DNA of 64,000 nucleotides, taken from assembly GCF_009914755.1 (NCBI RefSeq), contig NC_060937.1. The stretch is one strand, 5' to 3'. The stretch comes from the human T2T-CHM13v2.0 reference genome, Homo sapiens. The translations under genes were made by a program, and so were the position numbers. Below are positions 2,856 to 13,720 of the stretch, piece after piece; position 1 is the stretch's first letter, and each line of letters begins with the position of its first letter. The notes under the pieces were generated by a model. That model was given only the letters and a program-made list of their open reading frames with translations. It did no database searches and had not been told where the DNA came from.

Positions 2856-3632
2856 TTTTTTTTTTTCAGCTTTCTTGAGGCATGATTGACAAATACTGTA
2901 TTTATTTAAGTTGCACAACATGATTTTTTTTGTTTTTTTTGTTTTTTTTTTTTTGAGACGGAGCCTCGCTCTTTCGCCCAGGCTGGAGTACAGTGGCGCG
3001 GTCTCGGTTCACTGCAATGCGCTCCGCCTCCCGAGTTCACGCCATTCTCCTGCCTCAGCTTCCCAAGTAGTTGGGACTACAGGCGCCCGCCACCACGCCT
3101 GGCTAATTTTGTTTTTGTATTTTTAGTAGAGACAGGGTTTCACTGTGTTAGCCAGGATGGTCTCGATCTCCTGACCTCGTGATCCGCCCGTCTCGGCCTC
3201 CTTAAAGTGCTGGGATTACAGGTGTGAGCCACCACGCCCTGCCCTCATGATGTTTTTATTTACAGATACACTGTAAAATGATTACCACTATCAAGCTAAT
3301 TAACGTATCAATCACCTCATGTAGTTACCTTTTTTTGTTTATTTTTGTGGTGAGAACACTTGAGATCTATTCTCTAAGCAAACTTCAGGTATACAATACA
3401 TTATCGTTAACTATAGTCACAAGGCTGTACATTAAATTTCAGAACTTATCATCTTATAACTGAATATTTGTACCTGTTGACCAACTTCTCCCCATTTCTC
3501 CCACTCCCAGCCCCTACTAACCACCATTCTATTCTCTTTCTATGAATTCAACTTTTTTAGATTCCATATATAGGTGAGATCGTGTATTATTCATCTTTCT
3601 GTGTCTGGCTTTTTTCACTTAACGTAATGTCT
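2856..3632 (-). mobile_element. L1MA-type 3' end nested in the older L1 and split by an AluY
   Basis: T-tail at 2856 followed by tttcttgaggcatgattgacaaa...ttcaacttttttagattccatatataggtgagatc, typical of an L1MA 3' UTR. Confidence 0.7.
2924..3243 (-). mobile_element. AluY-like SINE
   Basis: Full antisense Alu with AluY motifs ttcacgccattctc and gttagccaggatggtctcgatctc; catgat+T-run on both flanks (TSD-like). Confidence 0.93.
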
Positions 3633-4000
3633 TAGGAGTTTTCTTTAGGGGAAGGTTTTCAGTAACTAATTTGACTTATTTAGGAGTCTTCAGATTTCTT
3701 AATTCTTCCAGTCATTTTGATTCGTTGTGTTTTGTTAAGAAATTTGTCCATTTTCCCTCAAATGCTCTTATCATTACAATATCTTTGGAATCTGTAGTGA
3801 TGTCTTGTTTTTAATTCCTCATGTTATTTACGCTTTCTCTCTTTTTAAATTAAGTTTCTTTCACTAGGGTTTATCTATTTTTATAATTTATTTTAAAAAA
3901 CAATTGGTTCTGAGGATTTTCCGCATTATGTTTGTTTTCTACTGATTGATTTCTTCACTTACATCTATGGTTCCTTTCCTTTTGTTTTCTTTGGAATTGA

Positions 4001-8816: not shown

Positions 8817-9090
8817 TGTACTCTTGATCTGTTATGATGAGAAGGGCACTTTACTTCTGCAGTCTTCTTCCCAAAATACATGGCCCCAGTCTTAGCATAA
8901 GAAAGACATCAGACAAACCCCCAAAAATGAGCATAGTACAAAACACCAGGACTCCTAAAAAATGTCAAGGTCATCAAAAACAAGAGATATCTGAGAAAGC
9001 GTCACATTGTACTGGGGCCTACAGAGACATAACAACTAAATGTAATGCAGTATCCTGGATGGGGTCCTGGGGCAGAAAGAGGACATTCAG

Positions 9091-9329
9091 TGAAAAACCA
9101 AGGCTATATGAATAAAGCATAACTTCGGTTAGTAATAACATATGAATATTGTTTCATTAGCTGTGACAAGCCATAGTAATGAATGATGTTAATTATAGGG
9201 AAAACTTGCATCCAGTTTTCCCTATAATTAACATCATTCATTACCATGGCTTGTCACAGCTAATGAAACAATATTCATATGTTATTACTAACCGAAGTTA
9301 TGCTTTATTCATATAGCCTTGGTTTTTCA
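9091..9329. repeat. Inverted repeat with 116-bp arms, a 7-nt spacer and one mismatch
   Basis: 9091-9206 is the reverse complement of 9214-9329 except A9175/C9245; spacer tgcatcc at 9207-9213. Confidence 0.98.
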
Positions 9330-12300
9330 TATAGGAGCTCTCCATACTGTCTTTGCAACTTTTTGTCAACTAAGAATATTCTAGAGTTTTTTAAAAGTTT
9401 ATTTTTTAAAAAGTTTGGTTTCACTGAGTAAGATAATGACGTATTATGCCTGTTTTCCCTATTCCCAATACACGTAATCTGACATAAATTGCTGAACAGC
9501 TAGTTGCAAGACTAAAGTGAGTTTCTCATTACAGGTTGATGTAGTCATTTACTAATTGTCATTAAATCTGAATAAATTATATAAATATAAACTATACAAG
9601 ACCAAAGCCAAACAAAATTGATTATATTTTTACTCTAAATTTAACCTATAATTTCATGAACTATCCTTCATGCCCTGAGTATGTAGGCAATTAGATAAAA
9701 GTGATACATGGGTTGAGGAAAAATTTATTGAAATATGTTAAGTCTGCAAACATTTTTAATAAAGTCCTACCTAGATGCTTCTTCTAGCTTGGCAATTATT
9801 TATCTCACCACATAACCTCGCTTCATAGTATAATCTTTTATGTAGAATGAATAAGTTTTTTGGTAAAAATTCCCTTTGTCTTTTATAAATGTATATTATA
9901 TTCCAAGAGCAGAATCTAAGTTTATTGCTTATTTATTTATTTATTGTTTATTAAAACAGCATTGTTTTGAATTAATCACTCAACTATAATGAGAGTTGGG
10001 ATGACCATTTTGTGACTTAAGAATTTCAGCACCATTGTTCTTAGTCTAATCACTTACTTTAATAATTAGTAGATCATTAGATGACTTCCTTGTCCAATTA
10101 GATTTTTGTTCATTTTTATAATTTAAAAATACTATTTCAAGAAAGATTATAAAACTACTTGAATTTACAATACACATTTGACATTTAAAAACACAGAAAA
10201 TATTTATAATTTTTACTACATGTGCAAACTGCATGGCTGAGTTTGCAGAAATGCAATATTTTCTTTCCTGGCTCTATAGTCACTTGTCTCCAAACTCTCA
10301 TGACCTTCTTTTTATAGATTATGCCTAAGATACCATCTCTAATTAAATTTCCGTGTAGTGTGAATAATTCAATTTATCAAACTCTCGTCATTGAGACAAG
10401 CAATTCACCACATTCAATGTAATTATTAATGTAAATTCCTCCAGATAATATCTTCATTGACAGACAGCATCCCTTCATTTTTGTGGGCCTCGCAGATGAT
10501 TTACACAAGAGAATTTGATATGTTTTTATTTATTTTTTCCTCCAGAAAAAGAATCCTAAAAAAGATTCTTGTGAAAGCACTAGACACAAAGATGTTGACA
10601 TGTTATACCTCTAAGCAACATAATTTATGTTTGGGGGAAACGCCCAGTGTTGGGTTCTGACCATCAATATTTCTGAAAAAAAAATGTAGACTTTACAACA
10701 AAACAGTTTACTTTTTTAGTATAGATTATCAAATAAAAAGGATGAGTTGAGCAATTATGCGGCCTCTAGCAACTTATATCAGAAATAGAAATAACCCAGA
10801 TTCAAAAATAACTTACAGGCCCATCAGTCAATCAAATAAGGGTGCTGCTGAAAAAAGACCTAAATATCTCAGTCACAACAAAGACAACTATTTTCAGAGA
10901 GGGCACTGTAGACAAAAACACTGTTTGCAGCTGCAACCCAGCCCTAAGGAGGGCTGCAGACTGGGTTGGGAGAGAGGCCGGTAATGAGCAAAACGAACTC
11001 TGTAGCCTAGCTCTCCAGTGAGAAATGCAGGCCAATCAGACCATTTTTAGCCTGCCACAATTGTCCAGGGAGCCTCAGGGCACAAAGGTTGCACAACTGC
11101 ACCCTTGAATAAACACATATTTGGATTAGTGTCATAAGAGCATGCACGATTGGCTTTTCTCCAAAGCCCCACATTTTGACTGCTGGGACAGGGAATAAAG
11201 CAATGTATTATACGGTTAACCAGTGGGCCCAGAGGAAAGAGAAAGAATCCATCCAAGCGTCTCAGAGCACAAGCCATAAAGCTGCCTGCTGGAACTGCAG
11301 GCATCCACAAAGAGCCCATCACTCCTTCATCTGCCTAAGAAAACTTTCAATGCCTAGTGCTAAGAAGCAGAAAGAGCCACACTGGCTAGGAGGGGGCTAG
11401 TGATAGAATTTGAGGAAGATGAATGAACCGCATGTTAAGCTGCTTCACTGTGGATCCCAGTTTAAAAGCCCTGGTAAATAATTTGCCATCCACTGTTACC
11501 TGGAATAGGATGAAAGGCACTGTGTGAGTCGATCCATTACACTACTTAAGATAACTTTGAAAACATGGGAAAACAAGTGATTCCATTGCCTTTGAAAATA
11601 AAATAATCTTGCAAAACTACTTTGGTTCTTAAATAAAATATAAATTGGATGTTGGCATTTGCAATATGAACCAAGGAATTATGATGGGAAAAGTTAACGT
11701 GACTGCATGCATCATCAGTCATGAGAGAATAGGAACAGCTTTGGAAGACAGCATGGGGAGGATGAGAAGCCAGTGCTTTCCCATCATCAGAGCCCTCAGG
11801 CTCTGAAAGAGTGGCCCTGGGAGCAATCTGGAGAAAGGTGGCACTGGCATGGCAATGTCATCTGTTTTTCATATGCCCCTAAGTGAGCTCCAAGGCTGGA
11901 AAATCATAATTTGGGATCTTCTCCAGGCCTTCTAAAACCATGGTGCATAAATTTCTGAGGGTATTTATAAGTGACAGACATACTTCCAAGTACCATTAAC
12001 TAGAGTACTCTATTCATGACATATCCTACTTGGTTTAGTTATGATAACTCAGTCAGCAATTCATTTACTTATGCACTCATTTATTCACCTAATGTCTATT
12101 GATTATTTAGAATGCACCAGGCACTTGATCCAGCTGTCCAGAATACAAGATATACTCCTGAAGTCTGACTTTCATTCATTAACAACCACATGGATGAAGA
12201 AAGCATAAAAAAAGAAACCATTAAAAGATAGCTGGATTATAACCTAGCTCCCATTTGCACAGAGAGCTGTGGAAGTCAGCAGGTAACAGTTAGCTTTGGG

Positions 12301-12519: not shown

Positions 12520-13720
12520 TAGTCATTAAGGACATACAATGTAATAAAGTGTATATTGGTGGCAATATGTTTCCTTTCTCTGTCAGCTGAGAGAGCCCAG
12601 AAGCAATAACACCCCAGTAGCAATTAGCACACCTCCTGCCCAGATCATGGCTTCTAATACTATTCTCCAACAAAGGAAGCCCAAGCCCCTTGCAGAAATA
12701 AGTGATTCTAGGGCTGAGGCAGAAAAAGGAGGCTGAGCCTGGGGCATCTTGTAGTGTCAGTAAGTAAGACAGCATTTAAAACAAACAAAGCACCCCAAAA
12801 ACCCACCTGACGACGATGGGGGTTATGTCCAAGGGACACAAGAGCCAATTGAAGGAGCCCAGATTGCCAAATACACAGCAATTTGAGCAACCAAAAACTA
12901 TCACAGGATTGGATCATAACCCAGTGCTTAGGACCAATATCCATGTGTCCATATTGTTATCAATTAATGGTTGAATAAATAAATAAATGAAGAAGAAGAG
13001 ATGCAAGCCCTGTGCAGAATCATTCCATTTAATGTATAATTTACATTCTGTTCTCCCTCCAGGAAGTGGAGGATCACATCTCACCCTGCAAGTGCGAGCT
13101 ATGCAGAGTGCTGTTCTGCTGAGGAATGCGTATGGAAAGGTGAGGAAAGCAACCACACAGCGGATAAAGTTGAGAAACACTACCTCAGCCCTGTGGCCAA
13201 GGTCAGCATCAACAGCGACACATTATGTTGGTGGTATATACTCACATGATGTGGTCATGTGATGTGGTGATGAGAAGAGCATTTCCTCCTCAAAGCCCAT
13301 AACCCCATTCTAATAATGAGAAAACTATCAGCAAACCCCAAATTGAGGCACAGAGTGCAAAGTGCCTGGCCGGTACTCCTCAGAACTGTCAAGGTCACCA
13401 AAAACATGGACAGACCCAGCAACTGCCACAGCCCAGAGGAGCCTAAGACGAGATGAATAAATGTCATATAGTCTCCTGAATACCATCCATGAGCAGAAAA
13501 AGGACATTGGGTGAAAACCAAGGACATCTGAATAAGGTATGGACTTCAGTTAATAATAATGATCTGTATTGATTAATTGGTTGTGACCAAAATACCATAG
13601 TAATATATAAGGTGTTAACAATAGGGAAAACTGGGCACAGGGCATGTAGGAACTCTTGGTATTATTTTTGCAACTTTTTTGTAAATGTATAACTATTCTA
13701 AATAAAATATTCATTTAAAA
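12520..13720 (+). mobile_element. Old L1M (L1MC/MD-like) 3' region, paralogous to 8385-9410
   Basis: ggacttcagttaataataat...atagggaaaactggg...gcaactttttt...ctattctaaataaaat L1M 3' terminus. Confidence 0.75.

What the first reader, a model, noticed from the sequence alone, without database searches (positions are those of the whole stretch)
9091..9329. 116-bp-arm palindrome inside an ancient L1 whose structure records a single template-switch event
Seen: the arms are 115/116 complementary around a 7-nt spacer, although the host L1M is far more diverged from its paralogue at 13.5-13.7 kb. The paralogue reads gggaaaact-gggcacaggg-catgtaggaactc; this copy reads gggaaaact-[tgcatcc + inverted arm ending ca]-tataggagctc. 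The spacer read backwards is ggatgca, i.e. the start of the ~10 nt missing from the forward copy. Inference: the polymerase left after aaaact, copied about 123 nt backwards from the opposite strand starting about 7 nt ahead, then rejoined, plausibly using 2-nt microhomologies (ct at departure, ca at return). This matches the 'inverted repeat with inverted spacer' outcome of replication template switching, at an unusually long scale, and must be much younger than the host element or homogenised since.
Basis: partly seen in the sequence, partly recalled or inferred. Interest (0 to 1): 0.85.

Follow-up and report, generated by a model that had tools for sequence, protein, structure and literature searches.

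The report
Long template-switch palindrome in old L1
A 239-base near-perfect DNA palindrome inside an ancient L1 repeat on human chromosome 13 is best explained as the scar of one copying error, in which the polymerase briefly copied the opposite strand; this is a known kind of mutation, seen here at unusually large size.

Summary
The arms are 9091-9206 and 9214-9329, 115 of 116 bases complementary, around a 7-nt spacer. It is the only such repeat in the window and has no second copy in the genome.

No primate orthologues could be reached, so I used 40 other copies of the same L1 3' end as a stand-in outgroup. After AACT they read a 10-nt stretch. The reverse complement of the spacer ranks 28th of 16,384 7-mers on that profile; the spacer as written ranks 13,016th. 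The spacer is therefore the original sequence, inverted.

This is the published four-point event type 3-1-2-4, an inverted repeat with an inverted spacer, which needs an inter-strand switch. About 123 nt were copied backwards, replacing about 10-12 nt.

The arms differ by 0.9%, while the arm is only 67-78% identical to other copies. The event is therefore far younger than the L1, or the arms have been homogenised.

Published events average 11.6 bp, with maxima of 97-318 bp. This is a long-tail case of a known mechanism. No function is shown. Dating still needs ape orthologues and pangenome haplotypes.

The parts
8872..9413 (+). 3' end of the host ancient L1 (L1M-type; the subfamily name is not tested). 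It is colinear with other copies except for the inserted inverted piece. The extent is approximate and the 5' limit was not mapped.
   Evidence: Alignment with the paralogue at 13.3-13.7 kb starts near 8872. Forty family copies align from about 9014 to the A-rich tail. Genome hits are at 71-81% identity.
9091..9206 (+). Left arm. This is the original L1 sequence, contiguous with the upstream L1, and it served as the template of the inverted copy.
   Evidence: It is colinear with the family. At the one mismatch it carries A, the family state in 33 of 40 copies.
9207..9213 (+). Spacer TGCATCC, which is the original 7 nt that followed AACT, now inverted.
   Evidence: Profile test: the reverse complement ranks 28 of 16,384 and the forward form 13,016; 25 of 27 copies are closer to the reverse complement.
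9214..9329 (-). Right arm, the newly made inverted copy of 9091-9206. Its last two bases (CA, 9328-9329) could equally be original sequence, giving a 1-2 nt microhomology at the return.
   Evidence: The family reads [C/T]A at this place: C in 7 of 27 and A in 21 of 27.
9175..9175 (+). The single arm mismatch (A here; its partner 9245 reads C, whose complement is G). The change lies in the copied arm, either as a later substitution or as a copying error.
9330..9413 (+). Resumption of the colinear L1 3' end (TATAGGAGCTC...) through to the short A-rich tail.
13459..13680 (+). It has no palindrome.
   Evidence: 73.6% identity over 178 nt.

Best explanation
Long after the L1 had inserted, one inter-strand template switch occurred during DNA synthesis. 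In the four-point description the growing strand left its template after AACT (point 1, 9206). It re-primed on the complementary strand 7 nt further on (point 2) and copied about 123 nt backwards, through the 7 nt and then through 9206 down to about 9091 (point 3). It then returned to the original template about 10-12 nt downstream of where it had left (point 4), probably using 1-2 nt of homology (A or CA). The product is the original arm, the 7 nt now inverted, and an inverted copy of the arm. About 3 nt were lost, and the net gain is about 111 nt. The order of the points along the ancestral sequence is 3-1-2-4. Shown: the structure, the colinear flanks, the inverted orientation of the spacer, and the large gap between arm identity and host divergence. 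Inferred: that it was a single event, that it was recent, and which process carried it out. A replication-fork switch and microhomology-mediated repair synthesis give the same product and cannot be told apart from sequence.
For: Structure. The left arm is contiguous with the upstream L1 and the right flank resumes the L1 at the expected place. Spacer orientation: among 27 of 40 family copies with a 10-nt middle, the reverse complement of the spacer ranks 28 of 16,384 on the family profile and the forward spacer 13,016. Mean matches per copy are 3.93 against 1.33, and 25 copies are closer to the reverse complement, 0 to the forward form, with 2 ties. The three copies that read GGATGTG there include two of the best genome matches (L003, L006). 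They differ from the reverse complement of the spacer only in the last two bases, TG against CA. [quoted passage not shown] Youth: the arms match at 115 of 116, while the arm is 66.7-77.6% identical to 39 family copies (Jukes-Cantor 0.13-0.22 per lineage). One difference in 2 x 116 nt gives 4.3 My (95% interval 0.1-24) at 1e-9 per site per year, or 8.6 My (0.2-48) at 0.5e-9 (the rates are recalled, not from a call). Uniqueness: the genome search finds only the locus itself above 81% identity.
Against: No orthologous or population sequence was available, so the pre-event allele is inferred from paralogous L1 copies, not observed. Thirteen of the 40 copies did not have a 10-nt middle and were left out of the profile. 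A 7-nt motif is short: 5 of 5,988 local 7-mers score as well on the profile. The 'ct' microhomology at departure is not supported by the family (AG at positions 8-9 in 5 of 27 copies). Near-identity of the arms could also come from homogenisation of an old palindrome. The 123-nt copied fragment is about ten times the published mean of 11.56 bp.
Confidence: 0.8

Rival explanations
1. The palindrome is old, formed at or soon after L1 integration (for example by the reverse transcriptase or second-strand polymerase switching between cDNA and RNA). Its arms have since been kept alike by gene conversion or by repeated template switches between them.
For: Template switching between imperfect repeat arms is reported to homogenise them and to maintain hairpins (abstracts of PMC8604942, PMC13100816 and PMC8794818 in the listing). 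The sequence alone cannot separate 'young' from 'homogenised'. Both predict that the arms share all their differences from the family.
Against: It needs conversion every few million years over tens of millions of years between arms of only 116 nt. One event explains everything seen. First-strand cDNA synthesis cannot produce this arrangement, because the arm lies 5' of the junction on the RNA and would not yet have been copied (inference). The arm boundaries are sharp and the single difference is in the copy.
Confidence: 0.1
2. An intra-strand fold-back (snap-back) formed it: a free 3' end folded onto its own strand and primed synthesis, as in fold-back inversions.
For: Fold-back priming does make inverted duplications with short spacers (established knowledge; not tested here).
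Against: A fold-back leaves the loop in its original orientation, whereas here the spacer is inverted relative to the family. The published analysis states that spacer inversion cannot occur with intra-strand switches. A simple fold-back also does not return to colinear sequence 10-12 nt downstream.
Confidence: 0.03
3. It is an assembly or sequencing artefact, with no such palindrome in the donor genome.
For: Only one assembly was seen, and neither reads nor a second assembly were available.
Against: The arms differ at one base, and the structure returns cleanly to colinear L1 with a small, mechanistically sensible deletion. Typical missing-adapter or chimeric-read artefacts do not do this (inference from general knowledge).
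Confidence: 0.03
4. It consists of two independent repeat insertions in opposite orientation, or a hairpin-like DNA transposon (MITE), or an L1 5' inversion by twin priming.
For: Inverted neighbouring repeats are the commonest source of long inverted repeats in the human genome (review PMC7999016, passages).
Against: Independent copies of this L1 region are 67-78% identical, not 99%. The inverted piece starts exactly 7 nt beyond the break and has no tail or duplication of its own. There are no other copies of the palindrome in the genome. The order is forward-inverted-forward, whereas twin priming gives inverted-forward with no forward L1 upstream (recalled definition).
Confidence: 0.01

Closest known systems
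Short-range template-switch mutations, four-point model, event type 3-1-2-4 (mirror 1-3-4-2) of Loytynoja and Goldman 2017 (PMC5453318)
   Same: [quoted passage not shown] The flanks are colinear, points 1 and 4 lie only about 10-12 nt apart, and the logic is inter-strand.
   Different: The copied fragment of about 123 nt compares with a mean of 11.56 bp. It lies near the per-individual maxima of 97-180 bp and below the longest reported, 318 bp. It also sits in a masked repeat, a class that the published high-confidence sets filter out. Here the ancestral state is inferred from repeat paralogues, not from an outgroup species.
Ripley's quasi-palindrome correction model (1982), as described in the passages
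   Same: A transient switch to the complementary strand produces a perfect inverted repeat and can invert the spacer.
   Different: Ripley's model perfects a pre-existing imperfect inverted repeat. No pre-existing repeat is evident here: family copies show no inverted copy downstream of AACT.
Microhomology-mediated replicative rearrangements (FoSTeS/MMBIR), fold-back inverted duplications and ODIRA (listing; otherwise recalled)
   Same: They involve template switches at 0-3 nt microhomology that create inverted duplications.
   Different: Those are kilobase to megabase in size and often have kilobase spacers. This event is 123 nt with a 7-nt spacer and returns locally to the original template.
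Palindromic AT-rich repeats (PATRR11, 22, 17, 8), review PMC7999016
   Same: It is a near-perfect palindrome of a few hundred bp (PATRR17 is about 200 bp) that sits in an intron or intergenic DNA and could extrude as a cruciform (fold).
   Different: AT content is 69.5%, against the more than 90% stated in the review. It has a 7-nt spacer and complex L1-derived sequence, and no translocation or instability data exist for it.

Membership tests
Template-switch mutation, type 3-1-2-4 (four-point model) | The fragment between points 2 and 3 is the reverse complement of adjacent sequence. | tested here: met
   115 of 116 arm positions are complementary, and the 7-nt spacer fits the family profile only when reverse-complemented.
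Template-switch mutation, type 3-1-2-4 (four-point model) | Sequence before point 1 and after point 4 is colinear with the ancestral sequence, and point 4 does not precede point 1. | tested here: met
   Both flanks align colinearly with the paralogue and with 40 family copies. The inferred distance from point 1 to point 4 is 10-12 nt.
Template-switch mutation, type 3-1-2-4 (four-point model) | Point 2 lies downstream of point 1, so the spacer is inverted (inter-strand switch). | tested here: met
   for spacer orientation; the definition is from the passages.
Template-switch mutation, type 3-1-2-4 (four-point model) | An ancestral allele without the event is observed in an outgroup or in the population. 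| not testable with these tools
   No primate genome or human haplotype other than the window's assembly is held (one search says it has no relatives here). Paralogous L1 copies were used instead.
PATRR (palindromic AT-rich repeat) | More than 90% A+T (as stated in review PMC7999016). | tested here: not met
   69.5% A+T over 9091-9329.
PATRR (palindromic AT-rich repeat) | A site of recurrent translocation or size polymorphism. | not testable with these tools
Known microRNA or other RNA family (Rfam 15) | A match that reaches the family's gathering score. | tested here: not met
   There are 11 matches at E <= 1 and none reaches its gathering score. The best is the MIR6217 family at 85.2 bits against 110. 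These are generic long-hairpin matches.
L1 5' inversion by twin priming | An inverted 5' segment directly joined to a forward 3' segment, with no forward L1 upstream (recalled definition). | tested here: not met
   Forward L1 continues upstream of the left arm to at least about 8872. The order is forward-inverted-forward.

The most novel reading that the evidence does not exclude
The palindrome is young enough to be still segregating or unstable in people, showing presence/absence, flipped spacers or centre deletions. Because it lies in an intron of the + strand lncRNA LOC107984599 (hub annotation), it would be transcribed as a 116-bp perfect RNA hairpin. That would make it a new double-stranded RNA or small-RNA source created in one step by a template switch, the route proposed for new microRNA genes (PMC10710096, abstract only) but at about five times the stem length.
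Probability: 0.1. Interest if true: 0.55.

Novelty: new member of a known kind. Interest (0 to 1): 0.3.

Why it matters
This is a clean, large example of a mutation class that is usually studied at about 10 bp. In one step it produced a 239-bp palindrome of complex sequence, a size at which palindromes are considered fragile. GRCh38 holds only 718 spacer-less near-palindromes over 200 bp, and its longest palindromes are AT-rich.

It also makes a methodological point. Published scans discard repeat-masked loci, yet inside a transposon the other family copies serve as a built-in outgroup. They polarise the event and reveal the orientation of the spacer. Applied genome-wide, this could recover the long tail of template-switch events that current catalogues omit.

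For this locus alone the result is ordinary: no function is indicated.

Tried and rejected
- **Earlier findings.** A second call failed on a missing field.
- **Orthologues and haplotypes.** None could be reached. The held genome is the window's own assembly, with no relatives.
- **Great-ape event list.** I looked for the locus in the supplement of Walker et al. 2021 (PMC7954356, supplementary files 1 and 2). A phrase search across tab-separated cells does not work (the control found 0). Number-prefix searches for 2238 to 2247 returned no chr13 row. This is weak, because the GRCh38 position (about 22.4 Mb) rests on a recalled offset between assemblies. That method also targets short mutation clusters.
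- **Closed supplements.** The supplements of the bioRxiv preprint 10.1101/2021.11.26.470150 are closed and could list this locus if it is polymorphic.
- **Rfam.** Only sub-threshold hairpin matches were found.
- **Rejected readings.** Twin priming, two independent insertions, a MITE and an intra-strand fold-back were each considered and rejected, as set out under the rival explanations.
- One literature search failed on a term-length slip and was repeated correctly.

Full report
**1. The observation**

The repeat finder reports arms 9091-9206 and 9214-9329, 116 nt, 99% complementary, 7 nt apart. A base-by-base comparison finds a single mismatch, 9175 A against the complement of 9245, which is G. 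Just outside the arms only 1 of 7 position pairs is complementary, so the palindrome ends abruptly. The spacer is TGCATCC.

In the whole window only one other inverted pair of 40 nt or more lies within 2 kb, and it is 40 nt at 75%. Folded as single-stranded DNA, the region gives -129.8 kcal/mol against -22.2 +/- 3.7 for 200 shuffles, z = -29.4.

A search of the window's own genome with 9000-9420 gave 52 matches. Two are the locus itself, on the plus and minus strands. The other 50 are L1 3' ends at 71-81% identity. The palindrome is therefore unique. It is not part of a segmental duplication or of a repeat family with this shape.

**2. The host**

The left arm and its upstream flank, and the sequence to the right of the right arm, align colinearly with the second L1 3' end at 13.3-13.7 kb (73.6% over 178 nt). 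They also align with 39 further copies fetched from the genome.

The order is forward L1, inverted piece, forward L1. In the arm region the window copy is 66.7-77.6% identical to 39 copies (median 72.1%), which gives a Jukes-Cantor distance of 0.13-0.22 per lineage.

**3. The key test: orientation of the spacer**

No primate orthologue could be reached, so I used the L1 family as a stand-in for the ancestral state. In the MAFFT alignment of 40 copies, 27 have exactly 10 nt between AACT and the place where the window's right flank resumes. The other 13 have indels, truncations or insertions there and were left out of the profile. Over those 10 columns the family is G-rich with alternating pyrimidine and purine. 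The commonest first-seven words are GGGTGTG in five copies and GGATGTG in three.

- The reverse complement of the spacer scores +6.5 bits on this profile and ranks 28th of all 16,384 7-mers.
- The spacer as written scores -11.0 bits and ranks 13,016th.
- Per copy, 25 of 27 are closer to the reverse complement, none is closer to the forward form, and 2 tie. Mean matches are 3.93 against 1.33.
- As a local control, 5 of 5,988 7-mers from 3 kb around the site, on both strands, score as well.

The three GGATGTG copies include two of the best genome matches, L003 and L006. They differ from the reverse complement of the spacer only in the last two bases, TG against CA. Those are the two decay products of a CpG; that last point is an inference.

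After the right arm the window reads CA and then TATAGG.... The family reads [C/T]A at that place (C in 7 of 27, A in 21 of 27) and then the same continuation.

The simplest history is as follows. The ancestral copy read AACT, then the 7 nt now inverted, then about 3 nt now lost, then [C/T]A and the rest of the L1.

**4. Mechanism**

In the four-point model (passages of PMC5453318) the points fall in the order 3 (about 9091), 1 (9206), 2 (7 nt past point 1) and 4 (10-12 nt past point 1). [quoted passage not shown] The authors argue that spacer inversion cannot arise from an intra-strand switch. The anatomy here fits that type in every respect that could be tested.

About 123 nt were copied from the opposite strand, and they replace 10-12 nt, for a net gain of about 111 nt. 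A 1-2 nt microhomology at the return (A or CA) is plausible. The 'ct' microhomology proposed at departure would need AG at family positions 8-9, which 5 of 27 copies have, so it is neither supported nor excluded. A stalled fork and microhomology-mediated repair synthesis would leave the same scar, so the sequence cannot say which occurred.

**5. Age**

At the one mismatch the left arm has the family state (A in 33 of 40 copies). The change therefore lies in the copy, either as a later substitution or as an error of the switch synthesis.

One difference in 2 x 116 nt gives 4.3 My (95% interval 0.1-24) at 1e-9 per site per year, or 8.6 My (0.2-48) at 0.5e-9 (the rates are recalled). The host has accumulated 0.13-0.22 substitutions per site. 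Unless the arms have been homogenised, the event falls in roughly the last few per cent of the element's history. Both arms keep the single CpG of the arm (9126), which agrees with youth but does not prove it.

**6. Rivals**

- **Old palindrome kept uniform by conversion or repeated switches.** This cannot be excluded from one sequence; I give it 0.1.
- **Intra-strand fold-back.** It predicts an uninverted spacer and no local return, and is contradicted.
- **Twin priming, two independent insertions or a MITE.** These are contradicted by the forward-inverted-forward order, the 99% against about 72% identity, and the uniqueness of the palindrome.
- **Assembly artefact.** This is unlikely given the single arm difference and the tidy junctions, but no reads were available to check.

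**7. Comparison with what is known**

The mechanism is well described. In the preprint 10.1101/2021.11.26.470150 (passages):

- each person carries 3,049-3,934 such patterns;
- the mean copied length in unmasked DNA is 11.56 bp;
- per-individual maxima are 97-180 bp, and the longest overall is 318 bp;
- among gnomAD clusters the longest events were 119 and 125 bp in tandem repeats and 90 bp in complex sequence.

A 123-nt event in complex sequence is therefore in the far tail but inside the reported range. Both that study and the 2017 paper remove repeat-masked loci from their confident sets, so an event inside an L1 may not have been catalogued.

I found no chr13 row near the expected GRCh38 position in the great-ape event list of PMC7954356. 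That check depends on a recalled coordinate offset and is weak.

As a palindrome it is uncommon. A GRCh38 catalogue of spacer-less near-palindromes counts 783 of 100-200 bp and 718 over 200 bp, with the longest being AT-rich (PMC7680136, passages; review PMC7999016). It is PATRR-sized (PATRR17 is about 200 bp). At 69.5% A+T, and with a spacer, it does not meet the PATRR description.

Rfam gives only sub-threshold matches to long-hairpin microRNA families.

**8. Verdict**

The finding is a new, unusually long instance of a known mutation type, with no sign of function. Its worth lies in being a clear example, and in showing that transposon family copies can polarise such events where outgroups or unmasked sequence are lacking. 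The open question of when it arose, and whether it is stable, needs ape orthologues and human haplotypes.

Noticed in passing
L033 (G000:C2:25473935-25474922) and L039 (G000:C3:145354423-145355417): Two of the 40 L1 family copies are interrupted by an Alu-like sequence. It begins within about 10 nt of the position that corresponds to the switch point (just after, or just before, the GGGAAACT motif). This may be a weak insertion or nicking hotspot, or it may be coincidence.
   Followed up: partly
window 9126-9127 and mirror 9293-9294: Both arms keep a CpG (CTTCGGTT). Most family copies show TG, CA or TA at the same place in the alignment, so this old L1 copy retained a CpG that then got duplicated.
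   Followed up: partly
window 9135-9285: Rfam covariance models of plant and animal microRNA precursors (MIR6217, MIR4387, MIR4371, mir-384 and others) match the palindrome with E-values down to 1e-18 but below their gathering scores. Any long perfect hairpin attracts such hits, so they should not be read as homology.
   Followed up: yes
L013 (G000:C10:71974089-71975074): This family copy reads AGATGCA after AACT, 6 of 7 identical to the reverse complement of the window's spacer. It then leaves the L1 alignment altogether, through truncation or an unrelated insertion.
   Followed up: no
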